Source: Tubulanus polymorphus
Lineage: Eukaryota; Animalia; Nemertea
Direction: 5' to 3'
NCBI RefSeq assembly: GCF_964204645.1
Contig: NC_134028.1
Span: forward strand, 19,041,653-19,105,652
DNA length: 64,000 nt
Shown here: in pieces, positions 1-64,000 of the stretch
How the letters are laid out: each line of letters starts with the position of its first letter
Numbering within the stretch: the stretch's first letter is position 1
Translations under genes and position numbers: made by a program
Notes under the pieces: generated by a model
The model's database searches: none
Seen by the model: the letters and a program-made list of their open reading frames with translations, nothing else
What the model was told of the DNA's origin: nothing

Positions 1-101
1 TGCCCTAAAGCAATTATGTTCCCCATTGAAACAGAGCCTAACGTTGCATTTGTCACATGCTGTATCTGTGAACCCCTTTGTGCACATCTTGCAACGGCCC
101 C

Positions 102-1349
102 TTTTTAGCCCACTTGGGACTTTAGTCCCAGCGGGCTATTGCGTTTACTTTTCGTCCGTCGTCCGTAGACGGAATCCAGTTATTTTGGGAAGTTTTGAAG
201 ACGCTTCAAGGTAATGTCTTGATATTTGGGTTACACATGTATCTACCCTAGACACATCTTCAGCCCAAAAACTGGCCCTGTCAGAATCAAGATGGCCGAC
301 TGGCAGCCATTGTTGTTCGCCAAAATCAGCACTTTTTACACATTTTTGAACTTTTTGAGGGAAATTTTGAAGACGCTTTGATCAATTACGGATATATGTG
401 AATCCCCCCAGGGCCCATCAACATTACAATAATTGGGTCGGTCGGACTCAACATGGCCGTCCTATGACCTTTTTAGTGCCCAAAAATGTTAATTTTGGCC
501 CGAATTCTGAGTCCTGTAGCTTCCTACTGGTTTGCCATTTCTCATTACAATTTGTGATGGGTATTCTTTGGAAAGGGATGTTTTATACCTGAGACATGTA
601 TTTTTCATCAGCCAATTATGACGCAATTGGCGGCCATCTTGGTGTCACCAGTACTCATTTGTAAGTGGGAAAAAGTTTTTCCACATTATATTGATACCTA
701 AGCATATTTTGCTACCACAATCAATTAGAAAGTTGTAGCTCATAACGTGTTCTATGATTGTGGTGAGTTTCAAGGTTATTGGATTTCGTATATGGCCACC
801 AGGGGGCGTTGAATAATACAATATCTTAGCATTTCTTTATTATATTCGTACCTATGCATATTTTGTAACCACAATCAATTGGAAAGTTGTAGCTCATGAC
901 ATCATCTATGATTGTTGCGAGTTTTAAGGACATAAGTTTTTCTATATGGTCACCAGGGGGCGTTGAATAGTAGAATAACTTAGTATTTCCTTATTATATT
1001 GGTACCTAGGCATATTTTGTTACCATGATCAATTGGAAAGTTGTAGTTCATGACATGTTCTATGATTGCGGTGAGTTTCGAGGTCATTGGGTTTTGAATA
1101 TGGTCTCCAGGAGGCGTTGAATAGTAGAATGACTTAGTATTTCCATATTAAATTGGTAACGAGGCATATTTTGTTATCACAATCGATTACAAAATCGTAG
1201 CTGCTGACATGTTCTATGATTGTGGTGAGTTTCAAGGTCATTGGTTTTTGTAAATGGTCACCAGGGTGCGTTGAATGTTGAAATTGTTAGATTGTTGAGC
1301 ATTTGAAACCACTTCCCAAGTGGGCATGGTGTCCCTGGACCCCTAGTTT
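102..1349 (+). mobile_element. Non-autonomous Helentron (HINE/DINE-1-like), family 1, full-length copy
   Basis: Inserted in a T-run without TSD. Sub-terminal inverted repeat GCCCACTTGGGA/TCCCAAGTGGGC, 5' internal inverted repeat, GTCC-type microsatellite, four central 154-bp tandem repeats, 3' short hairpin then CTAGT. Confidence 0.85.
685..1280 (+). repeat. 154-bp tandem repeat (about 4 units) inside the HINE
   Basis: Anchor TGG(C/T)CACCAGGGGGCG and variants recur at 793, 947, 1101 and 1255 (154-bp period). Confidence 0.9.
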
Positions 1350-3149
1350 CTAATCTTATTGGCCATCGGCCAGATCCATCCTTCTGCACGTCAGTGACAG
1401 GGGCAGTTCGAATCCGCTTGGGGGGTTTAGGGGACCTTTCATCATCGAGGGGTCTTCCCCTCTTTCTCTGATCATTAACTCCAATGAGTGCTTGGGCAAC
1501 CTTTGCTTGGAAATGCCTATTGCACATAACATTTTTTGTAGGCACACCCAGCAAACGACACTCACCGCGGTACAAAAGCCACGCGTTTACAACTGCAATC
1601 ATCACACTATGCCAAAATAAATAGAGATACCACCTCCTAGATTTGATTGGGTATTTATATAACGCAGTACAAGCATCTAGTAGATCAACTCCCCCCATAT
1701 ATGAATTGTACATCTTGATAATGTTTGGGCGTTCGATCGGTATGTATGTCTTCTGAGATTTATCTCAGCGCTGAACCTGGTCTATTGGTTCAACCCCTAC
1801 AAATATTGAAATTATTGTCACACAGTTGTTGTCAGCCCACTTCACAGCAACAATATTTGAATTTGTATCAACAACCTCTTCATACGACCCTCTTCCCCTT
1901 TTGAATTTGTATCAACAACCTCTTCATACGACCCTCTTCCCCTTTTGAGCAGTATCTTGTCATCACACAATGTACATCGGGGAAGGCGATTTTTACGTAC
2001 TGTACCAATGAAATGAATACCCATGGTATTCAGGGTGGCTACTAATGCTAGACCAGTAAAATAATTGTCTGCAAATACCTTGTAATTGCTGTTCGCAGGC
2101 AGAGTGCTACTCAGTTTTACAACAACATCACCCCCAACTCCAAGAGCAGAGCGTGTTCCCCCACCACCTTGGTACACGTCGAAATCACACAGTATACCAG
2201 AAGTGCCAGTACGTGCCCACATTTTGAGACCCCATTTATGAGGCTTGTTTTTTATATACTGTCTTATAGAGCTGTACCTCCCTTTGAACAGCACCATTAT
2301 TTCGTCTATAGAGTTATATTCTTCTGGCTCAACAGTAAGACAATTTTCTCGCAACAGGTTTAGCCACGGTCGAATTTTCCAAACCTTGTCTTTTTTCACT
2401 TCCTCACTAGCATTTAGATTATCAGCAAAGTGCAGCATAGTAACTAAGAACCGAAACCTCTCCCTACTCATTGTATCTGCAACAGGCGAAAATCTGGTTT
2501 CAGTCTCCCAATACATGCGCACACCAGGCATTTTTACTAATCCCATCAACAGATACATGCCGATTAGTTTTTCAAGTTCCTTTATAGACAGGTTAGCTAT
2601 AGTTCCTTTTTTTGAAGGGAGTTCTCATTTGAACACTGTACAACTAACCGCAACATATCGTCTGTTATGAATTTACAGAAGTATTTATACGGCGAAGATA
2701 ATGCATCTGGTTCTGTCAGGGGATTACCTCGGAAAATTGCATCCGGTGGATCAAATTTTTTTGCGCCATCGTGGGGGATTCGTCCACATCATTTAACAGA
2801 TTATTCACAAAGTTCGCTAGGGGTTCATCATCTGAAGAGTCAAATCCATCTGAGTCTTCATTTATGTCCTGGTTAGGTTCAGGTCCATAGTCTTCTTCAT
2901 CACCAGTTTCTTCAGACAATTCTTCGAGGTCGCTGTCATTTCCGTCACTGAGTGCCTCTAGGACATCAACAATTTGTAGCTTTTTTCTTCTTTCCATAAC
3001 CAGGACCTATAAAATAATGATAAGATAAATGTAAAAAAATGAAACTTCAAAAAGAGGGAGCATGGATGATAAGTTACAATGGATGGTACCCTTTTGTCAA
3101 ACCATCAATCGAATTCAAACGATGAATGACAGAGAGGCAAAACATGGGT

Positions 3150-4200
3150 CACATTTAAATATTCCAATAGCGGAATGCTAGTGAAAAAATTGTCAAAATA
3201 GACTTGATGATTTTTATCAACTAGGTCTGAACACAGAGAGATGACAATTTCCTCTCCAAGGCCTACATATCCAGGTCTTCATCATGATCATCAGTGTTAT
3301 CCTGCCCAGAGGTACCCTTACCTGTTGCCATCTTTAGGTCACGGTCTCCGGATGATGACGGATTACTGAACTCAAATATACGAGAGGAACAAAGACACCA
3401 ACACATTAACGACTGTGTCCATTGAGAGAGAGAACAAAGAGAGTTTTTATTTTACCAATATAGCGTTAGGTGGCAGCACTTCTCATAGTACCATCTTTAC
3501 ATATACAGTGTTGCACAAAACAATACATGTACAATAATACAGAAACATGAGTTTATATTATATCATTACCTTGATACACATCAAACTTAGATATATATCC
3601 ATCAGGGTCAGCCCTCATCCACAGTTTGTAGCCCGTTTTGATGGGTTTCATAGGATTATACTGTTTGATTGAGTGGCGCCCTTTGAACCTTTTCATGCTT
3701 TCATCTATACTAAACCTTCTAGAGACATTGTACAACTTCACAAAATTCTGATTTACTGCACTAATCAGTGGTCTCAACTTGAACAACTTGTCAGTATTGT
3801 TTTCGGGAATCTCGCTATTGTCGTTAACATGCAAATTAGATAGGATCTGGGCAAATCTGTTCCTAGGCATGACAGATGACACATATGGCACTCCCAAATC
3901 AAAGTCTGTTTTCCAAAATCCATCCAGCTGGGAAGTACGTGGTATCCCATAACTATGTTGACTCCCATAAAACCATACAGTTCCTCTTGCGTTATTGGCG
4001 ATATATGTCGGTCTTTCTGATTTATATACAAGTTTGTTTGGAAAAGTATATCATTGCAAAGTGGCTCATCCATGTATTTCAGAAATATACTTCCATGTGT
4101 TTCATTCGCTGTGTAATAACCAGGTACTGGGCCTGAAAGATATAAAGAAGGCCAACAAATTCAGTGATGCCCCTAGGATCTGAGAAGGGCTCAACTTCAT
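3150..4200 (-). mobile_element. piggyBac transposase fragment, element B, split by a solo LTR
   Basis: ORFs 3774-4073 and 3553-3897 (SIDESM, KQYNPMKPIKTGYKLW, FDVYQG). The frame resumes below 3322 as GKGTSG...GLGEEIV...VYFDNFFTSIPLL. Confidence 0.88.
3323..3565 (-). mobile_element. Ty1/copia solo LTR with 5-bp TSD
   Basis: Minus strand TGATA...CAACA, flanked by TTACC at 3318-3322 and 3566-3570. Shares motifs (ATGGCAACA end, GGATGATGACGGA, TGGCAGCACT) with the LTR at 62010-62217. Confidence 0.85.
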
Positions 4201-4577: not shown

Positions 4578-5063
4578 TCATAGTGCCACTTCTAGAAGAG
4601 ACTTCAATTGTGGTAAAGTTATCTTTTCTGTCTTGTCACCAATGTCCTTCAAAGATTCTAGTATACGTTTCAGTTCGACTTCAGTGATCGGATCATCAGG
4701 CTTATCACGTTTCTGTATGAAGTCCTCCAAGAATTTAACTTTTTCAATTTTATTCAATTGCTTTTTATTCTTTTTTGACTGAGAGGTCGATGGCTTGGGT
4801 ACGGACTTCTTCTTCTTTGACTTAGAGGTTGACGGCTTGGGTACAGTCTTTGCCGTTATTACGGGCCGACTAACTTCCTCTATCCAGTCAATTTTTCCAT
4901 TGCCGTTTTTGAATAGAACCTCCGGTTCTATCTTTCCAGTCAACCCCCCTTTATACCACCGTAGTTTTATAACTTCGTCATTTATTTCCATCACCTCGCC
5001 TATTTGAGGCCAGTAATCTGCATATTTTGCCATGTCTAATAAACACAAATTGCCAACTACCAT
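4578..5063 (-). CDS. Unassigned ORF/exon, probably the C-terminal part of a TE-associated protein
   Basis: 161-aa open frame with WPQIGEV...LRWYKG motif and a 14-aa tandem duplication (VPKPSTSKSKKKKS/VPKPSTSQSKKNKK). An acceptor-like AG lies near 5118. Confidence 0.4.
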   Translation of the reverse strand: MVVGNLCLLDMAKYADYWPQIGEVMEINDEVIKLRWYKGGLTGKIEPEVLFKNGNGKIDWIEEVSRPVITAKTVPKPSTSKSKKKKSVPKPSTSQSKKNKKQLNKIEKVKFLEDFIQKRDKPDDPITEVELKRILESLKDIGDKTEKITLPQLKSLLEVAL

Positions 5064-6091
5064 TTCTCTTTCAACATCTTTGATCGTTGAAGTTCCGGAT
5101 TTCTTGCCAATTACAACCTACAATTTCAAAATTAAACGTTATCAAGCAACTTATTACAGCACTCATTATATAATAGTAGTTCGTCAAAATTGATACCTTT
5201 TGAAAGTAAAGTAAATTTTTTAAGTATACTTTTAGCAGTTGTAGTTATTAAACTATGTTTATTGATGCGTGACTGGTTGACTTTCACCATACACTCGACG
5301 TCCAATAAATGAACAATGAACGATACGTAATTTTGACGCATTGTACTGCATCGCCATAGATGTAAGCAATAATAACTATTGGGCGTCATGTTTAGCTAGC
5401 TGATAAAAATATTGATGCGTAGAAATGTTGGTGCAATTCGCCTTGTAGAGAGGTGTTTCAACCCTTCAGGCCCATGTATCTACAAGCCTGTGTTTTCATT
5501 TGGTAGTTTTTCTAATAAAACTAAAGCACTCACTACAAAGTAAAAGCTTTTCCAGGTTAACCGATACGGTATGTAATATGTTAGTGTCAATTACATGCAC
5601 TTGTACAAAAGCGTCTGAAATAATATTTCGTAACATTTTATGTGTAGAAATCTAAAGAACTTGAATAGAAAATATACCGTGCTATTACAATCCCGAGACC
5701 AAGTTAATATGGTCGAAGTTTGGTTTGATCATATCCGGCACTCCAGAAGGAATTTTTCGAAGGAGGTGTCCAAATTTGTCTCCATCGGGTCCTTTGGTGG
5801 ATTTATTGGATGGAGTCAATATGCTCCATGACATCAGGGAAGTGCAAGGTTTGAGCATCTTGCACCCACATTTTTTCTGATTCGAAGATCCTGGTCACGG
5901 CATGATGTCAAAAGAATCAACTTGAAGCCTTGACTTCCGTATTACAACTAACTATGTATTTTATTCTTCAGTAAAAAGATACATCATTTAACTGCGCATG
6001 CGCTGGGGGATGGAGACGTGGATGACACCGGGTTATCTAATGTCTACTTTAACTTGACTTGAGAGCACATCAGGTGGCCTAGGTCAGTCAG

Positions 6092-7799: not shown

Positions 7800-9290
7800 G
7801 CGAATTTCTGGACAAATTACTAACTTTTCTGGTACAAAATTTGGATGCTTCATATTGATGAATATCATGCAGATTTTTGGTCATTTTAATTTTTCCTGTA
7901 ACTGGGCAAGGGTAGGACCTGAAATCTAAATGCCGAATACAAAGATCATTAGGGTTCTCTTTTTCTTCTGGTGTAAAATTTGTTCAGCAACCATAGCAAA
8001 CCCTTCCGTGAAGAAATGTAAATTGGAAATCTTGAGGGGAATGTTGAGGTAGTTGTGGTTAAACGTTGCCTATTTCTCCTGTTCCAAGTGAATTTAATCG
8101 TATGTCCGATGTCGATATATTAAATAGATTACTGCGTCAAATGTTTGACTTATGCCATGTCAAGAAATGTGATAAAAGTTTCAATTTTTCTGCAACAGCA
8201 ATGCTATGTGAGCAAAAATAATGAAACTTGTATTGATTGCATTTACAGAAGCATTTGCTGTTCTTCAAAGAAAAAGTAACTTGATTATCTATAGCAGACG
8301 GCTCGCTAATAAGGCTATAGTTCAGTAATGAGCCATCGGTTGAAGGTGCTGGAAGAATAGCTGACAAATTTTTAAGTAAGGAGGATGCCTTTTAACATAC
8401 ACCCTTCAATATTGATTCGCTTACGCTAACGTTGTAGTGGGCTTTGGCTTGTTGAGGGGATACAGACAATGTTGCATTAAAGAAATTGCATGGATATTCA
8501 CCATGAAGAGCATGCATAGTGAGAGATCTAGCTTGAGATAAAAATTTCTCATCTACGTTCATATAAAAAAATGCAGGTTTTAATAAAAACTTACTAAATT
8601 CTTGCCTAACTTCAAAACTTTCCGATATACCGGCATATGCCTTTATTATCTCTTCGCGTTCGTCCAAGATTAATTGGTGTAAAGATTTTACGAATGCACA
8701 CAGACCCATTTCCCTTCTTTGCATCCAATTCCTTAACTTTGCATTTGTACTTTCCTAACTGTTTGTATAAAATTTCGGAGGGGACGCTCCAAGTCCTGCA
8801 TTAGTCCGGACGTCCTGGAGAATACTTTTCTTAATCATATCTGATTTTGATTTCATATACTTGATAAATGAACTCATTTTACCAGTAAGCTCCCAAACAC
8901 TAACTAATTCCGTCAGTTTGATGTCGAATTCTTTTACCGAACAGTCAGTTAGTCCAGGTGAATGTTTATCGCCAAATACTTGAAACAATACATTAGCTTT
9001 AGTTACAGAATCAACATTTTTTAATTGATCTTTCACATTGGCCTCAAAATGACGTGTGTAACGTAAATGTATAGCACCAGTAAAAAATTTGTGTGCAGCG
9101 TTGCTAAAATTTGTTTCGCCATCTGTACCAAATGCTGCGACATTTACTATTTTGTCATTTGCTTTCATCATTGACTGAAATAACTGACTGTATGACTCAT
9201 TTGTTTTATCATAATGGATAAGAACGGGTCCAGTAAAAATTGGGCTCTTTCCTGTCTTCTTGAGTGTGATCATGAGATGATCTCTAGAGT
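7800..9290 (-). pseudogene. Mutator (MULE) transposase with SWIM zinc finger, degenerate
   Basis: AFGTDGE (catalytic D), HLRYTRHF (degenerate CxxH), YTNS*ESTNAKL (catalytic E), CxCxxxxxxxxCSH SWIM motif. Stops and frameshifts. Confidence 0.8.
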
Positions 9291-11001
9291 GTGATCGAAA
9301 CGTTGTGTCTTTTAAAATCTTTGACTTAATAATTTCTTGATTTTTAAACTACATGTAGTAATTTGTATATAGTGGGTTTTTAACATTTATCATCAACTTA
9401 ACATTCAACTCAAAAGCTACAAACAATGAAACAATGAACACCTACAACAACTAAAGGGATTCAGAATCCTTTTAGTTGTTGCAGGTATCATTCTACCTTA
9501 CTGATGCCTTGTACATGTACCTACATTCATTAAAATGTTTGTGATATGTTACCCCTTTGGCATTTTCAGGAATTTTGCTCGTATAGTACATTCATTCATT
9601 TAATTGACAAGACTAAATTTAAAAATTTATCAAAACATCGCAAATAAAGTTATCATCCATTGCATTAATAAATGGAATAGAGCAAACTTATATTCACCTT
9701 TAGTTCAAGGTCTAATTGTAAACTTATTAAAGGCTACCAACTATTACTGATCATTGGCATTTTTGCAATTAAGACGAGTCTTTATACCATAATAACAACT
9801 ATAATGTGACTATGCCAAATATGACTCCCCTGGTTGAGCAAACATTGAAGGGGAAATAAAGACAGGTAACAAAAATATTGCATACTTCATAAACAGCAGT
9901 TTACTTAAATGTTTATTTAGTTTGTAAGAATTATTGGTTTCAGTCAAACACAGATAAACCTGTCTATGATCTCACATTCTATTGTATTTGATTGTAAACC
10001 ATGACGTAAGTAGTAAACTGATGGATTTTTTCTTAATTAATGCCGACTGTTGAAACTATGATGACATTTTGATAGCATCTTCCATGCCTTTCAATTTATA
10101 CCAGTAACTGCATCTGCAAGCGCATCAACCTACTATCAACGTTTATGAAACGTTGAACTAGATGTTTAATTTTGATTGATTTTAAGTTTAAAATGAAAGT
10201 TGAGCTGACGTAATTTATAGATATTGAATCAATGTTGTGTTGATAACATTGAAAATACGTCACGGTTCTACGTGGAATCAATGTTGAAAGCGAATATTGA
10301 ATTTAGGTTGAAATTAATGTTGACCTGACGTCAGTTTACAACCTTCATTAAACGTTGATAAGAAGTTGAAATAGAGGTCACATGTCCACGTTGAAAAGAT
10401 GTTGAAGATAACTACTGACAAAACAAGCTGAAATTATTTTTAAAATTGTTTATTGAAAAACGATTAATCATGTTCATAGATTTACAGGCATCCATTGTCG
10501 AGGCACCCGTGAGTTTACAAAAATCAACAAACCTAACAAAAAATACTGAAAATGGTTGAGCAAGTCGATTTTTTACTCTAAATACAAAGTTCATCTTTTA
10601 CCATGAGACAATAATGTGATACTGTATTCCCTGATTTTAGCAAGATACTTCAAAATTCCCTTATCTGTGGACAGCTCATGCTTAGATAATTCAAAATGAA
10701 GTACGAACATTACTTTTCACTATCTGACATACTAATCGAGAGAGCAATATTCCTTTGATAATAAGAGGCTTTTGCACAACTACATGTTCCCATCCAACAA
10801 AATCTAAAATCAACTGAATGGTTTATCATCAACTGTTTCAAAATTATGAAACAATATTGGTGTCCCTATATATGGTGCATACTTTAAGTGGCTTTACATG
10901 TGAGTAAGAGGAACTGTACCTCAGTTCAAACACTACTTGTGTAAAGAGTCTATCGTGCAAGTCTATTGTGCCTTACTGCCACCTTTCATGTAGCGCGTTC
11001 G

Positions 11002-11213
11002 ATTATCTTCTCCCAGTAAGTCTGGGTATACCCGGGAATCACTTGGATGCGTTTGATTTATCCGTCACGTGGTAGTTTGGGCTTCCCAGGGGAAGTTTAA
11101 GTAACCTGCTCCGAGTGTCTCTCATTTTAAACTTCCCTGGGGGAGCCCAAACTATCACGTGACGGATAAATGGATCCCCAGGGATATACCCAGACTTATT
11201 CGGAGAAGATAAT
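11002..11213. mobile_element. Fold-back MITE (long imperfect palindrome)
   Basis: ATTATCTTCTCC...GGAGAAGATAAT termini and inner arms TTTATCCGTCACGTGGTAGTTTGGGCT / AGCCCAAACTATCACGTGACGGATAAA. Confidence 0.75.
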
Positions 11214-11321
11214 GGAATGCACTCATAGTGCATACTTTAGGTGGCTCGACATTGTCTGTTCCACATCTTTTTCAATGCAGTTTATAAAAATTAAAAACAA
11301 AACATTATTGAAAACAAATAA

Positions 11322-11998
11322 CCCTTTGGTGCCTAGGGGTAGCAACACTGACAGTGACCTTGATTTATCCCCTCATCCCCAGGAAGTGATATAGATAATT
11401 AGGATGATATAGTTTTCGTCTTGTACTGTTATGGTGAGACACAAAAAGCTGGAAAATCAGTTCAGAGAGGAAAGAGGAGAGTAGACAACTAATGAATATT
11501 ATAGGTTGTAATTGCCAACATTTGTTATAAGCTGAAATGAATAAAACGTGTTGGTAACTTAAATCTGAAATTTCAGCGTGTGCAAAATTTTGAAATCTGG
11601 TTTTGAATTTCTGAGGAAAAATTGCTTTTACTTTTTTATTTTTTGGCCTTATGCCCTAATTTTTTATATGTTGTTAGAAACAGTCTATGGAATCCCCTGC
11701 AATTGATTATTCTGATAAGGGCAAGATAAGAGAGAGTTCCATTTTCAGAATTTCACCAAAAGAATTTCACCCAAAATTTTCTAGCTGGCCCCCATTACCA
11801 TATGTATAAATTTTGACAATGGATTCTAATTCTGCTAGAATATACCTTTAATTCGATACTTGGTTGAATGCTGTAGCACCAAAAATAAAAAAGTAATAGC
11901 AATTTCATTATCAGTCGTCTTCATCATTCATAGAAACAATAGAAATTGCTCAGGCTGATTAGTAGATTTACCGGCCGAACCCCTCAGGCACCAAAGGG
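11322..11998. mobile_element. Non-autonomous piggyBac MITE
   Basis: TIR CCCTTTGGTGCCT / AGGCACCAAAGGG. Flanks ATAA and TTAA. No ORF. Confidence 0.82.
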
Positions 11999-12044
11999 TT
12001 AAGCCATTTCACTCGACCTAAAAACCTCAAACAATATTGTTGTA

Positions 12045-12091
12045 AGTGAACGCAATAGCCCGCTGGGACTTAAGTCCCAAGTGCGCTAAAA
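12045..12091 (-). mobile_element. HINE family 1, 5'-end fragment
   Basis: GTGAACGCAATAGCCCGCTGGGACTTAAGTCCCAAGTGCGCTAAAA is the reverse complement of the family 1 start. Confidence 0.75.
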
Positions 12092-12135
12092 ATAAACTAA
12101 AATAATTACATCAAAAAGTTCAAACACTACTTGTG

Positions 12136-12276
12136 TCAGAGTCTATCGTGCGAGTCTATCGTGCCAGTCCATCGTGCCTTATTGCCACCTTTTCTATACA
12201 GTGCGTATTTGAGCTGACTAGACATCGTCTGTTCAATGTCCCTTTCTGTGCATGGATATCTTGAAGTAGCAATTTC
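12136..12276 (-). pseudogene. Exon resembling the C-terminus of a BEN/DUF4806-like domain
   Basis: TERDIEQTMSSQLKYALYRKGG fits the ...E..I...LK.AP.R.GG pattern. Acceptor TTCATTCTAG upstream. A partial duplicate lies at about 10922-10997. Confidence 0.45.
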
Positions 12277-12856
12277 TAGAATGAAAAACATGTTCAAATT
12301 ATAATTAACAACAAGCAATTGTAATTGTATTTGAATTTACATGTACTATCCATGCGCGTTCCAGAGCTGGCAAAAATAGCAGAGGGATGACTGTTTTACA
12401 TGTTTACCTGTTTTTGCTCAAAATATATAATGAAATCTCTTCAAATGTATTAATTTTCTCCATTGTGTATGATGAATAATGTGATTATTTAAAAACAAAC
12501 AAATGGGAACCAGGTTTCAAGTGGCAGTATATTAAATTGATGAAACATAACGCTTCTGGTACAAATGGGACTATATATGGCTATTTTAGCCCAACAATGG
12601 ATAAATGTCCAGTGTACCCATGAGGGGTCCAGGGATTCCATGCCCACTTGAAGAGTGGATTGAAATGCTGGAAAATATGTCAATTTCAATATTCAAAGCC
12701 CCTGACAAACATATACCAAAACCAATGATGACCTTGAAACCCACCAAAAATGTCATGATGCAAATTTGCAATTGATTGTGGTTGCAAAATATCCATTATA
12801 AATAGACAATCTGTATAATATTCAACTCCCCTTGGGGCGAGAAAGAATAACTGGTT

Positions 12857-12986
12857 GGGGAGTGTTCAAATAGTATGTACGGCCAATTTTGCGGTTTTTT
12901 AGACCCCCATGCACTCCCCCTTGTACGATCTTGGTACTTATTTTATTGACCCCCCCCCCTACCGTACGTACATTTTGAAAGACCCA
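12857..12986. mobile_element. Small MITE with imperfect TIRs
   Basis: GGGAGTGTTCAAATAGTATGTACGG versus the reverse complement of CCGTACGTACATTTTGAAAGACCC. Internal GACCCCC tracts. Confidence 0.5.
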
Positions 12987-43906: not shown

Positions 43907-43910
43907 TTAC

Positions 43911-51040: not shown

Positions 51041-51088
51041 TTTAAGTAAAGGTAACGTCATATACGTAAACATTGGTGATGTGAAAAT

Positions 51089-51395: not shown

Positions 51396-51900
51396 GAAAA
51401 TCTTGTTTGAATGAAAATAATTCTTTGATCGAACAATACGCTTTTTGTTTGAACCAAAACTTTTCTTCATTTTGACAAAAAATGTGTTCGAATAAAAAGC
51501 TATGTTATTGTTGAAATGAAAAACTGTTTGTCCCGGCAAAAAAATTTGGTTGAGCGAAAACAATTTTTTAGAACGAATGTTTGAATGTAAACAATTCTGT
51601 TCGATTGAACGAAATACTTAATACTTTTGGTTCGGAGAAAAAACTTCTTACAATATACTTGTTCGAACGAAAAACTTAATGTTCTGACAAGAAAATTCTG
51701 TTCAAATTAAAACGATTCTGTTCGATCGAACGATTGTTCGAACGAAAAACCTTTCGTTTGGACAAAAAAAGTTTGTTCAACTTTGTTCTAACGATTTTTT
51801 CAAATTGGTTCAATCGAACAGAATATTATTGGTTCGAACGAAATAAATTTTGTTCCGACGAAAGATTTTCAAGCGAAAGGCCTTTTGAACGAGAAAAAAG
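51396..51900. repeat. Degenerate short-motif repeat region (GTTCGAACGAA-like)
   Basis: Recurrent TGTTCGA(T/A)CGAAC and AAAAACTTAATGTTC motifs. Confidence 0.6.
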
Positions 51901-51927
51901 ATATTTCTAGGGCTCCGCAGTAACTAA

Positions 51928-52184
51928 AAGCTGGACGTAGGTCAGCCTTGTGACGCGATGCAATCCTCGCGTTGCATTGCAAGTTTCGGTGCAAGTTGCT
52001 TGTGATACGATTGTCAGCGACTGTGTGCGACTAGTTTCTGCCGGTCGCAAGAGCACGTAGGTCGCAACCCGTCACAAGGGAGTGTAGGTCAATGAGTCGT
52101 TGCGACACAATCGTCGCTGGCGGTCGCAGTGAATTGCGTCGCAGTGAGTCACTAGCCGTCGCAAGGCCGACCTACGCCCGGCCT
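51928..52184. mobile_element. MITE, probably PIF/Harbinger-like
   Basis: Imperfect about 28-bp TIR AGCTGGACGTAGGTCAGCCTTGTGACG / CGTCGCAAGGCCGACCTACGCCCGGCC. TAA at or next to both flanks. Internal GTCGCA repeats. Confidence 0.7.
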
Positions 52185-53061
52185 AAGTCATTAGGAATTA
52201 ATGAAATACCAGTTTCATTTATGATGAAAAAACTCAAATGAAAAGTCTGGCTTATAAAGTTGTCTGTTCAGGCGAAATTTTCAAAAAAATCTTCATTTTT
52301 GCCAATAAAATTGATAATTGTGATTGATCGTTGCAAGTCAGAACCAGTTAATCACTAATTAACATGCATTTTAATAATCAGATTGCTCCTTTACAGTGAA
52401 CTTAGCTTTTACCTCGTAGAGGCTACTAGGGTATGTAGGCCTATGTATATGCGTAGGCCTAACATCCGGACAGATTGGTCGTAGGCCTATGGAATAACAA
52501 CCATCCTAAATATCGTAAATTTTGTTTTGAAGTTCAATCCAATGAGTCCGTTAATAAAAGCAACAATTATACTGTGTTTGTTTGAGACAGTAAAGCTCAG
52601 TGCCGGTAGGCCTAAAGCCTTAAGGTCGCGTAAAACTCGATAAACACTTCAAGCGACACAGCGAACGATCTCCTTTCCCCCACAGCGAATGCTAACTCCG
52701 AATGTCAAGTGTGAGTCCATCATACGGATAGGAATGTGTTATATACTTGTATTTAGTAAATACCTAGTGCATTTGACAATGATCGGTATGTACTGTAGGA
52801 AATATAGAGTATTGATATTGATATAGAGGTTGAGGCCCGCGGCCGAATAAAGTAATATATTCTTCTATTTTGATACCTCATCGACACAACAGCTTTTCTC
52901 CGCTATATCTCTTCGGCGTGTGTAGTTTAGGCCTACGACTCCCCGGTACACTAATGATTATCTTAGTAAATACACGGTTAATTTGGTAAAGAAAAATAGG
53001 TATTGTTAAACTAACTGCTTGAAGCCCGTGGCCAAATCACTGGTAGTAATAAATTAATTTG

Positions 53062-54000
53062 GACGACCACGGCATGGCTTACCCTTCTTTACCAGAGCCT
53101 GGGTGAGGGTGGCTTGGAATACTTTCATGGGCATGGTCTTCATTATGCCAAGTAAGTTACAATCTCGCCTGTACAAAAACCAAGAATTCACAACTGCCAA
53201 GGTGACAGTGTGGTAAAAGATATACAGATACCATCTTTTACTCTTCAACTGTCGCTTATACAGAGATGACAACATGTCAAGCAAATCTACTCCACCCATG
53301 CTCTGGTTATAGAGTTTGATTATGGCAGGACGGTTTACCTACACATGAGTTTTGCTGGACTTGTTATATCGCTGAACCTGCTCGACCGGGTCTTTTCCAG
53401 CATATATGGAAATAAGCCTCACGACCTTGCTGTCTAACCAGCACACGAGAGACAGGTTTCTGGTCTTCTCGTACACAGCGGAAATGGCTCCACGTCCCAT
53501 TACTTTCAAATCTTTCTCGGATTTTAGCGGCGCATTGTGCACACGGTTTGCTGAATTGTACCTGTGTACTGAAGACCCCGTCGAGCAAGTTCAGCTGCCA
53601 TTTCAAAGTTGGAAAAATAATTGTCTGCAAAGACCTTGTATGGTATATTTGGTGGTAGTGACTGACACATCTGCAAGACAACATTACCGCCAAGGCCACA
53701 GTGTGGCAGATCATCGATACCAATGCCAGTGCCCTTGCCTTGGTATACAGCGAAATCGTGGAGGAAACCAGATGCACTACAGCGCCCCTACAATTTAAAG
53801 CCCCATTTTTTCGTTTTTTTTGGCATGTACTGCTTACAAATTGACCTTCCTTTGAAGGCGACCATAATCTCTTCTATGCTTTGGTTTTCATCATCATTAC
53901 TGACCGAAAGAAAATTTTTCCACTGTGATTCTAACCACGGACGGAGTTTCCATATCCGATCAGCTTTTTTATCATCTTCTGTGGCAAGATTGTTATCGGG
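53062..54000 (-). pseudogene. piggyBac transposase fragment, element F
   Basis: IWKLRPWL, AFKGRSICKQYMPKKTKKWGFKL, FADNYF-like and MGGVDLLDML motifs. A piggyBac-type terminus GAAGGG|TTAA lies at 54055-54064. Confidence 0.85.
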
Positions 54001-54269
54001 AGCCGGGAGTAGCATTTGATGAAAAAATATTCCCGATCATCGGGAAAACACTCGGAAGGGTTAACTATCTCTAAAAGCAGCTTGGTCTCAACAGGCTTAA
54101 CCATAAGTCATGCAACTTTTTTAAACTCAATATCTCCACACCTGATCGGCACAGATGCACCAAATTGCTACCAAAGGTTAAACAAAACATGAAGTCTTCA
54201 AATTTATATAACATTACCTTTTATATCTTGATTTAAACTTTTTACAGAATGTTTAAGTGTGATTGCCAT

Positions 54270-54695
54270 TTTGCCTCCATTCCAATTTTTTCCACCTTAA
54301 TGTTTCTTATCTCAATGATTATGTTTCTCTTTAATTGTTCAATAGTTTTTGGTGTGTTCCGGTAAACCCTGTCCTTTAGAGAGAAAATAATCCAATGTGT
54401 TCGCATTGGGAGAGCAGACTGGCCAGTTCACTGGAGATCTCCAACTCAGTACTTGTACGCCAACTCAACCATGCACCAAAGTTAATGACTTCTCTGCAGT
54501 GTGAGGAGAAGCTCTATCCTGTTGGAACCAATGCGATTCAATACTCTGTTTGTCATAATTTCTTCTCGATGATGACATAAAGTATGTGGTGATCATGTGC
54601 CTATACAGTCTTCCATTCATGGTTACGGCTTTCCTATCATCATCCTAAAAGAAATATTGGCCAATTATTCCGTCCCAGCTCAATGCACACCACCA
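54270..54695 (-). pseudogene. Degenerate Tc1/mariner transposase fragment
   Basis: WCALSWDGIIGQYFF, VTMNGRLY, QQDRASPHTA and RVYRNTPKTIEQLKRNI. Confidence 0.65.
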
Positions 54696-55118
54696 AAAAA
54701 TCATAAAGACTAGTCTTTTTGAAAGAATAAGTTGAAATGCAAGACTAGACCACAGTTTGACTAACCGGCACACTAACCACGATTTCGTGCGGCCTCTTAT
54801 TTTTAGCTGGTTAGCGTAACCACAGATAAGCCACTAACCACGGTTAGGCTAACAGGGTTTTCCTGTGCCCGCCCCTGGTTGTGACGCTCCTTGTTATATG
54901 CAACTGCAACCCTGTAATAAACTTTACAGGCATTTCATCCATGCTATATCTTTTTGTATTTTAGTCAAAGCAATGGCAAAATTAGTTGAAATGCAACAAG
55001 CAAGGCTTGTTATAGGCCTATTTCATTATTTGATTCCAAAATTGGGTATATTTAAACCTGTTGTCAGTTGAAGTTGTCAATGCATTGGTATATAGAAATA
55101 TGACAGTTATCTTTTAGG

Positions 55119-55373
55119 ATGAATTCAACACAGGAACAGGTGCGATTGAAAAAGAAGGGCTATGATTTTTGGCGGACAGATTTGAGCGGTGCAAAGTACG
55201 TTGTCGCTCCAATGGTTGATCAGAGTGAGTTAGCTTGGAGATTATTAAGTAAAAGATATGGTGCTGAATTATGCTACACTCCGATGATTCATGCTTCGGT
55301 TTTTATAAGAGATGAACATTACAGAAAGGAGTCGATGATGTCTTGTTCAGCTGACCGACCACTTATTGTCCAG
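55119..55373 (+). CDS. DUS1L: tRNA-dihydrouridine(16/17) synthase 1-like, coding exon 1
   Basis: [29 protein letters not shown]...DRPLIVQ. Acceptor TTTTAG at 55112-55117, donor GT at 55374. Confidence 0.95.
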
Positions 55374-56691: not shown

Positions 56692-56851
56692 TTTTGTGCC
56701 AATGAACCAGAAATCCTACTAAAAGCAGCAAAGTTAGCTGAGCCATTTTGTGAAGCTGTCGATCTAAATCTCGGCTGTCCACAAGCCATTGCTAAAAGAG
56801 GTCACTATGGTGTATTCCTGCAAGACGAGTGGGAGCTTCTTCATAAAATGA
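56692..56851 (+). CDS. DUS1L: DUS1L coding exon 2
   Basis: [53 protein letters not shown] (catalytic NxGCP). Acceptor TTTACAG, phase-1 donor GT at 56852. Confidence 0.95.
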
Positions 56852-57200: not shown

Positions 57201-57313
57201 TAAGTCTATGCAATGAGCAGTTAAATGTTCCAATTACTTGTAAAATAAGAGTATTTCATGATATAAAGAAGACAGTAAAATATGCTCAAATGTTAGAGTC
57301 TGCAGGATGTCAG
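57201..57313 (+). CDS. DUS1L: DUS1L coding exon 3
   Basis: (I)[37 protein letters not shown]. Acceptor TTTTCTAG, donor GTTAGT. Phases match exon 2. Confidence 0.95.
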
Positions 57314-58439
57314 GTTAGTGTATGTCTTTTTAATTTCATTATTAATGTAGTTCTCGGTACAAGTGGGTCAACACTATCTTTGTTACATCTATGAAGTGAG
57401 CAAAAATTTTTAAAACAAAAATTAACAGATAGATTCAAAAAATTTTGTCAGCTTTCTTTTGTTCACTGGTTTAGAAAAAAATATCCGCTAAATTTCCTTC
57501 TGAGGTAACATACTTCAATACAACTTTACCGCTACGTACTTCATCCCTAATGAAATGGTAAGGAATGTCTATGTGCTTCAAGCGCTGGTGTTGTACTGGA
57601 TTATTGGCCCCATACAATAAAGTTGGACTAACTTCGTCTCCAAAATTAAAATCTTTTAGAAGATGAGTCAAAAATTTGGATTCCTGCACAGCCGCAGCAA
57701 GCGCCATATATTCGGCTTCACACGTCGACAATGCGACGGTCTGCTGTTTTCTACTCTTCCATGATACAGGCCCACTCTCATGGGCTAAACTAAAGCAATA
57801 TCCGGTTATACTGCGTCTGTCTGAGGACGCTGCCCAATGGGCGTCTGAAACCAACTAAGCAAATCTCTTTACACTTCTTAAAATTCAAACATTTATACAA
57901 CTCCCTGTCAATGGGGGCATTCGGGTACGCAGATTTAACATCCATTTGGTGGACTACCAAGTCATGTTGCACAGCTAGCTGTATGAGCACTCTAACTGAC
58001 GTTAAACGTGCAGTTTGGGAAAACATCTCACCAAAATCTATTCCAGCAACTTGCAAGTAACCTTTCGCAACAAAACGTGCCTTGTATTGTTTCTGCCCAT
58101 TGGCATCACTCTTGATTGCGTATACCCGGCGACCCCCCACTACTTGACGGTCTTCTGGAACTGTTGATAACTCGAAAGTAGCCTCTACAAATTACCTGGA
58201 GTATGAGACATATAATAACAATAATCAATATTCATACAAGAAGTGGCATTTACATAATCATTATCTTCATTGTCACTTAAAACATAGTCTTGAAGATAGG
58301 AAGGTTTGCGACTTTCCCTTTTGGGATATTTACGATCAGTGTTTTGATCACTACTATTTGTTACGTCAGATTTTTCGACAGTAGTTTCCTCACTGGGATT
58401 TGAATTTTCAACATCTGCTTCATTACTACTCAGAAGTGC

Positions 58440-59880
58440 CTACGGGCGGCTAGAAACAATTCTTTGTGAACTGTGAGTCTAGTACTCTTCCATTTACGCT
58501 CCGCACATTTTCATCATGGACTTTGTGCCTTACATTTCACACATTTTGCATCATGGACTTTGTCGTGATCCTCGTCGAGACAAACGTAAGGTTACACGCT
58601 TGATTTTAACCGGAGCATGTTGATCGAGAGCAGCGCCTAACTCCAGATTGAAATATGTGAGACAATCAGTGACGTCGGTGAATTGGGAAATACCATCATT
58701 TATGACTGATAGGCGTGCTTTGAAAGAATCAGTGTCAATGTCCTGAAGCTTCCTGGTAGGTAGAGTGGCATGAGTTAATATCAGCTTAGGCTGCCGTAGA
58801 CCACAGACCACAAGGTTGTAATCGGATACCAATTCACCGACACTCAACGACCGAAGAAAATTGGCGTCACTTCTCGTTATAACCACATCCAGAATATGAC
58901 CAGCTCAATGTGTCGGTTTAGACAAATGCTGAGAGAGTGCAAAAGTATCCAGAATGTCGGAGAACTGCTTTGAATCAGGCAATGCAGGTTTGTACAAATG
59001 AAAGTTTATATCGCCAACTATAACTATGTCGTCGGTGGTACTCAACAGAGACTGCAGGAGTTCAGTCAACTCAACGAAGAATTTAGCAATGGTCAGTTTA
59101 TTAGCACGAGAAGGTGGTGGTCGATAAATCACGATACATCTAAGCCGATTTTCAGTCAGGCAAATCTGCAGCTGCATCACTTCAAAGGTTATAATTGAGT
59201 CCGATTTGAGTATTTTGACTGAACTGGATGTGCCTTTGATGAGAACACCAACACCACCATAACCTTTGTTCCCAGCAGGCGGTAGCTTGTGAATCTTAAA
59301 TCCATCTCTGTTAAGGGCTTTGACGAAATATTCATCCTTAGCAGAATTTGTTAACCATGTTTCAGTCAGGCAGAGAATGTCGAGGTTATTTTCAATTACG
59401 CTATCCCAGATGTTGTCAATTTTATTTCTGACTGACCTACAGTTTAGTAGCCCCTAAGGTCAAGTGACGTTTTCCACCATGGTGGTTTCGCCTGGTTGAT
59501 GGTCGTTTATATATGCTTAATGATCTAAGTTTGTCCCTGAGTGCACTGTGCATGACTGATTTGATATTGATGAGCGACTTGACAGTTGTATAGTCCATTT
59601 CGATACCAGCTTGACTTGGTTGATTCATAACCGTGCATGGATGATCGTCTATCTCTATGTATAGTAGTCCACACAGAATAAACTTTAATAGTTTCCAGAA
59701 TTTAAATCCAGTCAAAATCACCATATCCATTTTATTCAAGCAGTGCTAATTGTCACCAAGATGAAATCCACTGATAGTTACATATTCATACAATTGTCCA
59801 GCAGTGAACTAGATATATTACTGGAGGAAAACTTGAGTTTAGATAGAGCAGACAGGAGCAGCAAATTAAGCGCTCACTAG
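58440..59880 (-). mobile_element. L2/CR1-group LINE 5' part (AP endonuclease) nested in copia
   Basis: LLNCRSVRNK, LCLTETWL, GGVGVLI, VIYRPP, IVGDINFH, PTH.AGHILDVVIT and SDYNLV. No RT follows. Confidence 0.85.
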
Positions 59881-61994
59881 CGACCTCTATCAATTGTTAT
59901 GAGGCTTATACACTAAATAGGCAGGACTTGTCCTGTCGTACCCGACAAAAATACCTTGTTCACAACTGTCATCTAATTTTGACTTGTTTTGGGTATAAGC
60001 GTAACACGTACGACCAAAAGTGTGCATGTGGCTCAAGTTTGGCTGCCTGCCAAGAAGCGCCTCATATGGAGTTTTCTTCAGACGAGTGTTAAAACACCTG
60101 TTCGTTATGTACGCTGCTGTTAGAACAGCCTACGTCCACAGTTGTTATGGTAATTTAGCCTCTAATAGGAGACATCTCACCATTTTGAAAAGTGACCTCC
60201 ATGACATCTCAGCCGTGCCATTTAGGTGAGGTGCGGACTTTTCATGTTTTTATCTGTTTTTCTATCAACAAGGATTCAAATTCCTTGGAAATGAATTCCC
60301 CGCCACCATCACTCCTTACACTTTTAACTATATTCACCTTCCCATATGGGGCTATGTCGGCTAAAAAGGTTCTAAATGCATGTAAAGCATCAGCTTTCTT
60401 CTTAATAAAATACACTGACACTACATTAGAATAATCATCTACACAGCATAAGGCGTATTGAAACCTTTATCATCAACTGGTTTGATTGGCCCTGCCAAAT
60501 CACAATGTATTAGGTTAAACGGGGCTTTTGCTCTTTCATTTGGTGCACGATTTCTAGACTGAGGCATTTTTCCTAGTACACATTCTTTACATTTAAAATC
60601 TCTTTTAGGACCTGTAATTTTCATACCTTTGACCACTTTCTCTAACCTAATTATATCGGGTACATTACAATGCCCATGAATACAGTGCCATTCACATAAA
60701 CTATGTGCTTCTTTTTCGCAGGAGATGGTATTATACATAAAATACAGACGACCATGTTTTCTGAAATTAAAAAAAGTACCATCTTTAGCAGTAAGATTAC
60801 CAGAATCTGAATAAAAATTCACCTTTGCACCTTGTCCAGTTGCCGCCTGGACCGAAAAAATATTTTGTTTAAATTTGGGCATAAACAGAGTTCTTTCTAA
60901 TATAACTTTATGCGTGTTTGCGTGTGAGTCGGTCAGGGAAACCTGCCCATTTCCCCTTTTAAGCTCTATATTGTTCTTTCTAGTTCCGTCTGCTAGCTCG
61001 ATGAAATGTTCCGCTGGTTTAAAGTTATCATCGAATGAAAGAAATTTTGTCTCGTCGTTCAGGATATGAGTGGTGGCACCACAATCCACGAGTAAACTGT
61101 TATTACCAGAATTTATTGTATACCCGCTGTTGTTATCGGAGTTCACACTAAAAATGAACGAGTTTTTATCGCTGTTGTTTCCGAATACGAATTTAGCTGC
61201 ATCGTGACCTTGTCCTCATTGTAGTTTCCTACAGAAATTAGTATCATGTGTATCGCTTGCAGTATTCGCACCATCGCCGTGGTCTGTTTTGTTTACAATC
61301 TTTCGCAATGTGACCTGGTTTATGACATCGATAACTTTCAACCTGACAGCCACTTTTAACTCTACGATTCTGTGGCCTACCCCTCGCACTGCTGTGGTAG
61401 TTTGTAGTATTATTTACATGTAACACGCTGTCATCATATGCACTCAATTGTGATTGAGCTTTATTCATTTCGGCAAAGTTTTTCAACGCAACTTTAAATT
61501 CTGCGAAAGAAATCACAACTTTTTGATTAATAACCGTTGTAAACGGCTTAAATTCTTCGGGTAAACCTTTAATGATCATTGCCACTAGTAAACTATCGCT
61601 TATGTTCTCTTCAGCAGACTTAAGGAACGCAGCAGCTGTTTCAGCTCTTAAAACATAATCAGTCGTGCTCTCATCGGCACTCATCTTCAGAGAGTTCATG
61701 GTATAAACTAATTATTTTAGGCTTACCCTTTGATAGGTAATGTTCACGTAGAGTTGAAAGTCCTTTTTCACCATTGTCTTTTGCATCGCACATAATTAGG
61801 GATAACGAGCGATCATCGAGGCATTGTACGAGCTCGGCGTATGCTTCAGCCTTCTTATTCACGAGCTGCTCGCCCACGAGTTGTGATCTTCCGGTCACCA
61901 CATCGTGCATTTTCTGGATTCTTATATATCCTAAGAATTTGGTTTCCCATAACTCATACTTGCGCTCATCACCATCATATACAGGTGCTCGAGA

Positions 61995-62009
61995 CCTGGG
62001 CCCATAACC
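61995..62009 (-). promoter_or_regulatory. Primer-binding site complementary to the internal (anticodon) region of tRNA-iMet
   Basis: GGTTATGGGCCCAGG directly after the LTR end CAACA. This matches the half-tRNA-type PBS of Drosophila copia. Confidence 0.85.
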
Positions 62010-62299
62010 TGTTGCCATTTTCGGGGGATCTCGATGGATGATGACGGAATAGAGACTGGCTTCCATTGTGATAAAACAACCTTGAGAGCCTTTTTATTGT
62101 GTAGCTAAACTACATAACTACATAATCAAATAGATGGCAGCACTGTCCATATTTCTTTACAGGGTGCAGCAAAACTAAATACAAACAATAAATCTAGCTA
62201 GGGTACATATTTTGACAGTAGGGTTGTGTTACCTTGTGTTGTGTCTTGTATAAGGGCACATTTTCCACCACCTGGCTTAGAAGAGGACTTTAAATTTAA

Positions 62300-64000
62300 G
62301 GGACATCAATGGCCTAAACTTAAGAAATAAAACCTAGACGTGCCAAAAATAATTGTAAAGATCTGCTTAAAAGTCATATATTAAAATTTTTTTCTAACTA
62401 AAATCTTGAAAGTAATCCAACCACTGCTTCATGTTTGTCAGGCTTCTCATAGGATTCACAGAGTGGTGCCTGTTCTATCCTAGATACAGCTTGTAGGTCC
62501 TCATTTCTTTCGACATATGTTATGAGCTCATCGAAGCATTGGTCAATAGGTACATGTATTCGGGATTTAAAGAAGAATTACATCAATATGAACTATGCTG
62601 ATATAATGCGTGTGAGTGGAAAAAAATTATGAAATATATTTTCATCACATCAAGCCCAAGAAGCAGGACGGATAAATAAATAAGTGCACACAATTAGCAG
62701 CCAACAGATATAGAGTATAGATATAGAGTATGATTGAGTTACAGGTATGTTGTAAAATTAACTATAATATCGCACCCTTCAATATTATTGAAAGCAATGG
62801 TTAGATAGTTTTACTGTATTTATTAAAATAAAACACACAGAAAGAAACAAGATTCTTCTCCTCAGAGAAGTCCTGCATTCTCATTATAATGGAGAGCTGC
62901 CAGATAGATCCTGCAATATACCGGTATTATTATCTCAACAATACATGTATTTCCAAAATGTATATAAGAACTGGCACCAATGGATACAAATTGGCTAGAA
63001 GATAACATACCTACTGCACGTTCCTTGGTTTGAGAATTTTAACATCTTAGGAGCAAAACGATTAACCACACTATGGTAACACTACGCCGCTAGTCTGACC
63101 AAGAGATGACATGTTTGTTACATCTCCAACGAATAGCTTTTTGGTCAACAGGTTTACAACTTTCTCGCAAGCTTCACTTCCTGTATACAGAGTTAATTAC
63201 CATTTCGAAGGAAAATATACCAAAATATATCAAATTTTCTTTTTAGTTATAAAGTGTACCTGGTCTCAACCATTTCTTCGGTTTTTCTAATGGACTGTGG
63301 CGACAGTTCTGGTGGATATTTTGAATATGTTCATTTGTTGAAGTCCATTTCCTCCTGATTTCTTCTTTATCACCAGGCGATGATGATTGAGCACACCAGT
63401 AGAGATGATATGTAATGCTCTTCATCCACAATTTCACAATAGGAAATGATTTGGAGATGGCGTCCAGTTTCTTAGCCAAATCTGAAAATAGATAAAAAGT
63501 TTTCAAATTTACAACTTTCATTAAAGTCACTTGATAAGTCCACAGTTTATGGCTTACGGAGAGTATTTGCCAAAAATTCACTTTTCACTACATGCCAGCA
63601 ATCAAAATAATGGGGAATATTCCAGGATACCCTAATCCATTTGGCAACTTGGCGGTGACAATCGGTTATAATAGCTTCCATAGTGAAACCCTCCAAGTCC
63701 TTTCAACATCGTTTCAATCCCTCAAGGTCCGTATTGTAACTATTGCCAGTTTCATTGCTCTGAAAGAGAACAAATAATTTCACAAATCAAGCATCCCCTC
63801 CTAGTATCAGCTGACTGCCTTTCAAGTTTTCTAATATTTTCGCTTTCGATTTTGTCCATGTTTCATTAATTGCTTTATAAAGAAATCGAGCTTGATGGTT
63901 GAAAAACGTCCTAACAGTTTGGCACTGTATATTTATAAACCTGAAAAGATACAATAGATTAAAGAAATACGTATAATTTAATAATATTTTCATTTAATTC
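62300..64000 (-). pseudogene. Multi-exon Kolobok-like transposase (degenerate)
   Basis: LILGGDA, WMKSITYHLYWCA...KWTS..HIQNIH..C.H...KWLRPG, QTS..YHSVVNRFAPK and YLAALHYNEN in exon-sized pieces with GT-AG boundaries. Possible terminus TTAA|GGGAC at 62296. Confidence 0.7.

What the first reader, a model, noticed from the sequence alone, without database searches (positions are those of the whole stretch)
1..64000. Near-total minus-strand orientation of about 20 unrelated TE insertions: candidate flamenco-like uni-strand piRNA cluster / transposon trap
Seen: seven piggyBacs, the MULE, DUF6729-like, KDZ, mariner and Kolobok relics, two copia bodies, the copia solo LTR, the env retroelement, the Penelope ORF, the L2 fragment, the BEN-like exon and the orphan ORF at 4578 all read on the minus strand. 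The coding exceptions are a short RT relic present twice as repeat cargo and the inverted Penelope pLTR. Non-coding HINEs occur both ways. If 20 insertions were independent and unbiased, the chance of one orientation is about 2e-6. Established: cut-and-paste transposons insert without strand preference, and uni-strand piRNA clusters such as Drosophila flamenco are dense nests of TEs antisense to one long transcript. Inference: a plus-strand precursor here would yield antisense piRNAs against many superfamilies, unusually including many DNA transposons. Alternative: the region is a giant intron of a plus-strand gene purged of sense insertions.
Basis: partly seen in the sequence, partly recalled or inferred. 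Interest (0 to 1): 0.85.

Follow-up and report, generated by a model that had tools for sequence, protein, structure and literature searches.

The report
One-way transposon nest inside DUS1L intron
In a probable ribbon-worm genome, sixteen unrelated transposon remnants all point against an ordinary tRNA-modifying gene (DUS1L) whose RNA cuts out a 47-kb stretch of them as one intron, so same-direction insertions were likely weeded out because they would harm the gene, although the stretch might also feed silencing small RNAs (untested).

Summary
The bias is real: 16 of 16 tool-supported coding insertions read minus (two-sided 3e-5), and the six piggyBacs are separate families. In run X4, one contig splices these exons. 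A second contig joins 8375 to 55118, a 46,742-nt GT..AG 5'-UTR intron. So 13 of the 16 insertions lie in or across this gene's transcription unit, antisense to it.

Best reading (0.55): sense insertions were purged from a giant intron, likely through splice or termination capture and Piwi targeting of nascent RNA. The bias exceeds measured vertebrate intron values (mouse ERVs 67.5% antisense gives 0.002) and includes DNA transposons. A dual-use locus, with the unspliced form feeding piRNAs, therefore stays open (0.35). No small RNA and no genome-wide baseline could be tested. The RNA evidence is one run. This scan noted similar one-way stacks in other genomes (74 notes); here RNA places the stack inside a gene.

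The parts
8249..8375 (+). Non-coding 5'-UTR exon of DUS1L, made of antisense MULE sequence. The 3' end (donor after 8375) is RNA-supported; the start at 8249 is inferred.
   Evidence: 30 loose letters of the X4 junction contig match 8340-8369 exactly and only there. Loose length 151 = 121 + 30, with AG at 8247-8248. One uATG at 8328.
8376..55117 (+). 46,742-nt GT..AG 5'-UTR intron of DUS1L; about 47% spanned by coding transposon relics, all antisense
55118..55373 (+). DUS1L first coding exon (ATG at 55119)
   Evidence: Pfam Dus E 1.5e-12; named DUS1L homologues up to 76% identical; spliced contig
56692..56851 (+). DUS1L coding exon 2
57201..57313 (+). DUS1L coding exon 3; the three exons give 176 codons with no stop
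57314..64000 (+). Next DUS1L intron, running off the window; holds copia, L2-type endonuclease and Kolobok-type relics, all antisense
   Evidence: 430 further letters of the spliced contig lie off the window; no further DUS1L exon by tblastn
1261..3006 (-). piggyBac relic A (upstream of the RNA-shown exon)
   Evidence: PF13843 E 3.6e-46
3108..4160 (-). piggyBac relic B
   Evidence: PF13843 E 3.3e-33
4581..5786 (-).
   Evidence: 95% identical over 87 aa to a Tubulanus polymorphus protein with DUF7869
7930..9348 (-). MULE relic that contains the DUS1L 5'-UTR exon antisense (left end approximate)
   Evidence: SWIM E 6e-5, MULE E 0.0013
20192..22590 (-). Penelope element with a 415-nt inverted terminal copy
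   Evidence: GIY-YIG and RVT_1; inverted repeat I2
22950..24990 (-). Two weakly supported relics: a piggyBac-like acidic N-terminus and a USP Cys-box fragment
   Evidence: by eye; UCH E 0.0067 and weak USP chains
28325..30365 (-). piggyBac relic C
   Evidence: PF13843 E 3.9e-27
31412..32650 (-). piggyBac relic D
   Evidence: PF13843 E 8.2e-21
33285..39687 (-). One DUF6729 element, interrupted by a 154-bp-repeat element and unidentified DNA
40170..41720 (-). copia relic 1
   Evidence: RVT_2 E 3.3e-12; tblastn to copia 2
43341..48163 (-). env-like relic, broken and apparently split by piggyBac E
   Evidence: Baculo_F E 4.9e-5 on the 47.8-48.2 kb piece; the 43.3-44.0 kb piece is assigned by eye
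44385..46182 (-). piggyBac relic E
   Evidence: PF13843 E 9.6e-29
48562..51041 (-). KDZ-type relic (C2H2, CxC4, SAP)
51035..54217 (-). 3,183-nt minus-strand GT..AG intron of a transposon-sense RNA, from the mariner-like relic into the KDZ exon
   Evidence: loose end before 54216 maps to 51003-51032
53057..54036 (-). piggyBac relic F
   Evidence: PF13843 E 4.4e-11
54245..54722 (-). mariner/Tc1-like relic (recalled motif; no Pfam or PDB hit)
57474..62093 (-). copia 2, with a nested L2-type endonuclease fragment at 58554-59453
   Evidence: gag, protease, integrase, RVT_2 and Exo_endo_phos hits
62401..64000 (-). DNA transposase relic, Mutator-like/THAP-related (Kolobok-type by recalled motif)
   Evidence: 555 relatives; Pfam Mutator at E<=0.001 in 6 and THAP in 1 of 14 scanned; tblastn
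15442..18676 (+). Non-autonomous repeat with a short RT-like relic on plus, 31-bp array and a nested 154-bp-repeat element; second copy at 51089-53064
   Evidence: very high summed DNA depth over the second copy

Best explanation
The nest fills introns of an expressed plus-strand DUS1L gene, whose RNA joins an exon ending at 8375 to the start-codon exon at 55118 across 46.7 kb, and the one-way orientation likely results from selection removing sense insertions that would truncate, mis-splice or silence this transcript. Shown: the bias, the gene, both introns, and low-level unspliced RNA. Inferred: (1) elements arrived in both orientations; (2) sense copies offered their own splice and termination signals to the host RNA and, being complementary to antisense piRNAs, would draw Piwi silencing onto the gene, which acts on any transposon class; (3) antisense copies were tolerated, decayed, nested into each other, and one was exonised.
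For: Intact DUS1L exons. Spliced contig at GT..AG. The junction contig's 30 letters map uniquely to 8340-8369 next to a strong donor, and the coding contig starts exactly at 55118, as expected if the upstream exon ends in A. Rough junction depth is about 97, against 206 for the coding contig and about 7 for unspliced contigs, so this looks like a main 5' route. The bias continues past the coding exons (3 of 3 antisense in the next intron). Non-coding 154-bp-repeat elements lie both ways. Antisense bias in introns is established: mouse ERVs 32.5% sense (PMC3446317, passages); DNA transposons in chicken and fly (PMC2911107, passages). In Drosophila, intronic copies nucleate Piwi-dependent H3K9me3 only when sense to the host transcript (PMC3504300, passages). 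Introns of piRNA precursors are often removed before processing (PMC7782496, passages).
Against: The bias is stronger than measured ordinary values. 16 of 16 puts the one-sided 95% lower bound at 83% antisense; the mouse ERV rate gives 0.002; with unbiased DNA transposons, 7e-5. Cichlid intronic DNA transposons show no bias (PMC4353498, passages). AATAAA is not depleted on the transcribed strand of the intron (45 seen, 46 expected); only ATTAAA (26 vs 44) and GT[AG]AG donors (42 vs 57) are, so simple poly(A) purging is weakly supported. About half of the intron is coding relic from many different families, as expected of a trap. The junction rests on one contig of one run whose kind is not on record. 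No genome-wide baseline was available.
Confidence: 0.55

Rival explanations
1. Dual-use locus: the DUS1L promoter drives both the spliced mRNA and, in germ or stem cells, an unspliced or alternatively spliced long RNA that is cut into antisense piRNAs. Antisense insertions would then be positively kept in the 5'-UTR intron.
For: Complete bias including 9 clear DNA transposons. Many distinct families, with piggyBacs at most 65% alike over long stretches. Snail piRNA clusters are enriched in DNA transposons such as Kolobok (PMC6128900, passages). A mouse locus has spliced short-exon isoforms, yet 85% of its piRNAs are intronic (PMC7782496, passage). Host genes can drive clusters (PMC13252550 preprint, Results). 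Nemerteans have piwi genes (PMC7764242, abstract). A transposon-sense spliced RNA exists in the intron.
Against: The nest is spliced out in the RNA examined. The gene-driven cases I read lie downstream of the gene or in 3' UTRs. No small RNA was seen. Purging alone predicts the same orientation.
Confidence: 0.35
2. An independent flamenco-like non-coding cluster with its own promoter, whose spliced precursor only incidentally reads through into DUS1L.
For: The only upstream exon seen is transposon-derived. The true start site was not found. Three antisense relics lie upstream of that exon.
Against: The far-upstream junction seems a main route into the ATG exon; the only other predecessor seen is unspliced at depth about 7. 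In flam-like loci the bias is driven by Gypsy alone (PMC10643416, passages), and no Gypsy pol hit was found here.
Confidence: 0.06
3. Chance plus window selection, local duplication, or annotation bias.
For: The window was chosen from a scan. Two short plus-strand RT-like relics exist. About 35% of the window is unannotated.
Against: Self-comparison shows only interspersed repeats, no segmental duplication. The plus strand was searched at least as deeply as the minus strand. p=3e-5, or 0.0013 counting both RT relics.
Confidence: 0.04

Closest known systems
Antisense orientation bias of intronic transposons (mouse PMC3446317; cichlids PMC4353498; chicken, zebrafish, fly PMC2911107; human PMC3088655; passages read)
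   Same: Elements inside a spliced protein-coding transcription unit, antisense to it; an antisense element exonised into the UTR.
   Different: Complete rather than about 60-70%, mostly DNA transposons (unbiased in cichlid introns), and concentrated in one 46.7-kb 5'-UTR intron beside introns of 1,318 and 349 nt.
Drosophila flamenco and flam-like unistrand clusters (PMC10643416, 12 passages read)
   Same: Dense nest antisense to one long spliced transcript.
   Different: Flam-like bias is Gypsy-driven, and the flam-syntenic clusters are 227-1,085 kb. Here the transcript ends in a coding mRNA, the cargo is piggyBac, MULE, KDZ and copia, and no piRNAs are shown.
Gene-anchored piRNA sources: promoter hijacking (PMC13252550 preprint, Results read), Tirant 3'-UTR insertions (PMC13226689, passages), mouse pi-1700016M24Rik.1 (PMC7782496, passage)
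   Same: A conserved gene's transcription runs through antisense transposon sequence.
   Different: The first two lie downstream or in 3' UTRs; the mouse locus uses a long unspliced isoform. Here the nest is upstream of the start codon and spliced out in the sample seen.

Membership tests
Intron with antisense transposon bias | Region lies between spliced exons of an expressed gene | tested here: met
   Junction 8375|55118 and spliced coding exons in run X4; 1-8.2 kb not shown to be intronic
Intron with antisense transposon bias | Elements antisense to the host transcript | tested here: met
   13 of 13 tool-supported insertions in or across the unit; 16 of 16 in the window
Intron with antisense transposon bias | Bias matches other introns of the same genome | not testable with these tools
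   no genome held
Intron with antisense transposon bias | Depletion of termination and splice signals on the sense strand | tested here: inconclusive
   AATAAA 45 vs 46 expected; ATTAAA 26 vs 44; GT[AG]AG 42 vs 57; acceptor-like motifs in excess, 32 vs 22
Uni-strand piRNA cluster | Transposon-dense, antisense to one long transcript | tested here: met
   coding relics span 51% of the window; plus-strand transcript
Uni-strand piRNA cluster | Makes 24-31 nt 1U, phased, one-strand piRNAs | not testable with these tools
   only contig runs were available
Uni-strand piRNA cluster | Transposon sequence retained in the exported precursor | tested here: inconclusive
   46.7 kb spliced out and about 127 nt of antisense MULE kept in one run; other isoforms and tissues unseen
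flamenco-like cluster (strict) | Non-coding locus, not a protein-coding transcription unit | tested here: not met
   the transcript splices into intact DUS1L coding exons
flamenco-like cluster (strict) | Gypsy-dominated antisense content | tested here: not met
   11 of 16 are DNA-type; the only candidate is one env-like relic (PMC10643416)

The most novel reading that the evidence does not exclude
A uni-strand piRNA cluster built inside the 47-kb 5'-UTR intron of the housekeeping gene DUS1L in a ribbon worm: one promoter gives the mRNA when the nest is spliced out and a multi-superfamily, DNA-transposon-rich piRNA precursor when it is retained.
Probability: 0.35. Interest if true: 0.72.

Novelty: new member of a known kind. 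Interest (0 to 1): 0.42.

Why it matters
Strand-biased transposon stacks are widely read as flamenco-like clusters, and this scan holds 74 such notes. This case shows from RNA that a fully one-way stack can be the spliced-out intron of a housekeeping gene, so bias alone does not identify a cluster. It also gives one locus where the two explanations make opposite small-RNA predictions. If purging explains it, selection against sense DNA transposons is much stronger here than in vertebrate introns, possibly through Piwi targeting of nascent RNA. If piRNAs come from it, it is a gene-anchored cluster upstream of a start codon, a layout I did not meet in the papers read.

Tried and rejected
The run search listed no holder on record as RNA; X4 is taken as RNA only because of its GT..AG joints. 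X4 cover over unique intron stretches was low and patchy (0-13 in most bins outside repeats and exons); contig depth and holes are no evidence on precursor level. No Rfam family or tRNA. Terminal-repeat and LTR searches gave no clean element ends apart from pairs around piggyBac D. A plus-strand tblastn hit at 62452-62565 (E 0.009) overlaps the minus-strand transposase end and was rejected. The protein Atlas gave no answer. I recalled spliced-leader trans-splicing in nemerteans as a source of the 30 unplaced letters, but searches did not support it (PMC7986045 has 0 mentions); it stays an untested alternative to a further upstream exon. A deletion allele instead of splicing at 8375|55118 is unlikely: canonical ends, an exact exon start, and an unbroken DNA contig over 54838-55698 in X1, a different sample. 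Seven literature searches and a DUS1L search, listings only, showed no nemertean piRNA cluster study and no DUS1L-piRNA paper among the rows shown. The supplement of PMC2911107, with the size of the DNA-transposon bias, could not be read.
Full report
Observation. 34 of 39 stop-to-stop ORFs of 120 aa or more are on minus. Pfam on 435 of 441 ORFs of 50 aa or more, homologue searches and tblastn of 44 window ORFs against the window give 16 separate coding insertions, all minus. Eleven are DNA-type (six piggyBacs, MULE, KDZ, a Mutator-like/Kolobok-type transposase, and the DUF6729 and DUF7869 elements, whose mobility is presumed). Five are retroelements (Penelope, two copias, an env-like relic, an L2-type endonuclease). 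Three weaker relics also read minus. Several ORFs that could be counted apart (33.3, 36-38 and 39.2-39.7 kb) belong to one DUF6729 element. The piggyBacs are separate families: the closest pair is 65% identical over 1,277 nt. Self-comparison shows no segmental duplication. The plus strand was searched further (0 of 138 short gap ORFs). The two-sided chance is 3e-5 for 16 of 16, and 0.0013 if the two unconfirmed plus-strand RT-like relics count. The bias is real.

Three plus-strand ORFs hit the Dus family. The first exon's named relatives are DUS1L, up to 76% identical. The exons 55118-55373, 56692-56851 and 57201-57313 give 176 codons with no stop, and no later exon lies in the window. Earlier notes of the scan call this genome a ribbon worm (unchecked). 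In agreement, the relic at 4.6 kb is 95% identical to part of a Tubulanus polymorphus protein.

RNA. Of four runs laid on 44-64 kb, X4 has a 959-nt contig at depth 206 that joins the three exons at GT..AG and goes on off the window. So 57.3-64 kb is intron. That contig starts exactly at 55118, behind an acceptor. Laying X4 on 53.1-57.6 kb showed a contig with 151 loose letters before 55112. Its nearest 30 letters match 8340-8369 exactly and nowhere else in the window at up to four mismatches. The next six window letters match 55112-55117 at five of six and are followed by a strong donor, which places the join at 8375|55118: a 46,742-nt GT..AG intron. The tool did not list this as a joint, because 8.3 kb was outside the stretch laid; it is read from the loose end. 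Subtracting known contigs from the bin gives a rough depth of 97 for it, against about 7 for three unspliced contigs. The exon is antisense MULE sequence and non-coding. 151 equals 121 letters back to an AG at 8247-8248 plus 30, the usual contig overlap (recalled), so a further upstream exon or leader is likely but unseen. A second loose end maps 54216 to 51003-51032 and fits a 3,183-nt minus-strand intron, so a transposon-sense RNA also exists in the nest. All of this is one run of one sample, and its kind is inferred.

How it likely works. Thirteen of the 16 insertions lie in or across the DUS1L unit, ten in or at the edge of the 5'-UTR intron and three in the intron after exon 3. Cut-and-paste elements are taken to insert both ways (established knowledge, recalled), so sense copies were likely lost. 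Two costs are plausible. Autonomous elements carry their own splice and termination signals. Also, sense copies in a nascent transcript are targets of antisense piRNAs: in Drosophila only sense intronic copies nucleate Piwi-dependent H3K9me3, although one such insertion did not repress its host gene (PMC3504300, 12 passages). The second route is class-independent and fits the lack of AATAAA depletion on plus (45 vs 46 expected). It is inferred, not shown here.

Why the piRNA reading survives. Measured intronic biases are milder: 32.5% sense for fixed mouse ERVs (PMC3446317, 12 passages) and none for cichlid DNA transposons (PMC4353498, 3 passages), though chicken and fly DNA transposons show some (PMC2911107, 7 passages; supplement unreadable). 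At the mouse ERV rate 16 of 16 has probability 0.002, and the data need at least 83% antisense. Selection of the window from a scan softens this by an unknown factor. The mix of many families resembles snail clusters rich in DNA transposons (PMC6128900, 4 passages). Most Nematostella clusters are uni-strand (402 of 457; PMC5731801, 4 passages). One mouse locus makes piRNAs mainly from the introns of its spliced isoforms (PMC7782496, 4 passages). Against this, precursor introns are often removed before processing (same paper), and the gene-driven clusters I read about sit downstream or in 3' UTRs (PMC13252550, abstract and Results; PMC13226689, 4 passages). Strict flamenco membership fails on two tested features: the unit is protein-coding, and the content is not Gypsy-driven (PMC10643416, 12 passages).

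Verdict. This is a real, extreme antisense bias inside the giant 5'-UTR intron of an expressed DUS1L gene. Purging is the best reading (0.55), dual use as a piRNA source is open (0.35), and an independent cluster or chance are unlikely. Small-RNA data and a genome-wide intron baseline would decide it.

Noticed in passing
window 51035-54217 (-): A transposon-sense RNA splices from the mariner-like relic into the KDZ C2H2 exon, skipping a high-copy repeat and piggyBac F; it runs antisense to DUS1L.
   Followed up: partly
window 8249-8375 (+): Antisense MULE sequence exonised into the DUS1L 5' UTR, with a 10-codon upstream ORF starting at 8328.
   Followed up: partly
window 23700-24990 (-): USP Cys-box fragment (UCH E 0.007), possibly a relic of the USP-bearing Mutator noted elsewhere in this genome.
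   Followed up: partly
window 4581-5786 (-): Relic of a kinase plus DUF7869 protein, 95% identical to a Tubulanus polymorphus gene model; probably a mobile element carrying a kinase domain.
   Followed up: partly
window 15442-18676 and 51089-53064: Very abundant non-autonomous repeat with a short RT-like relic and 31-bp arrays; summed DNA contig depth 26,000-37,000 over the second copy against about 35 in DUS1L introns.
   Followed up: no
window 100-1347, 6092-7364, 15963-17200, 25002-25303, 34884-35557, 12613-12796: Helentron-like elements (name recalled) with 154-bp internal repeats; four lie one way and two the other.
   Followed up: no
window 20192-22590: Penelope copy with 415-nt inverted arms that are nearly identical, so probably recent, yet with a frameshifted ORF.
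   Followed up: no
window 33500-34800 and 25300-28000: Unidentified stretches with fragmentary minus-strand frames; no Pfam hit.
   Followed up: partly
window 42380-43030: Short inverted-repeat element with pogo/Tc2-like ends (recalled motif).
   Followed up: no
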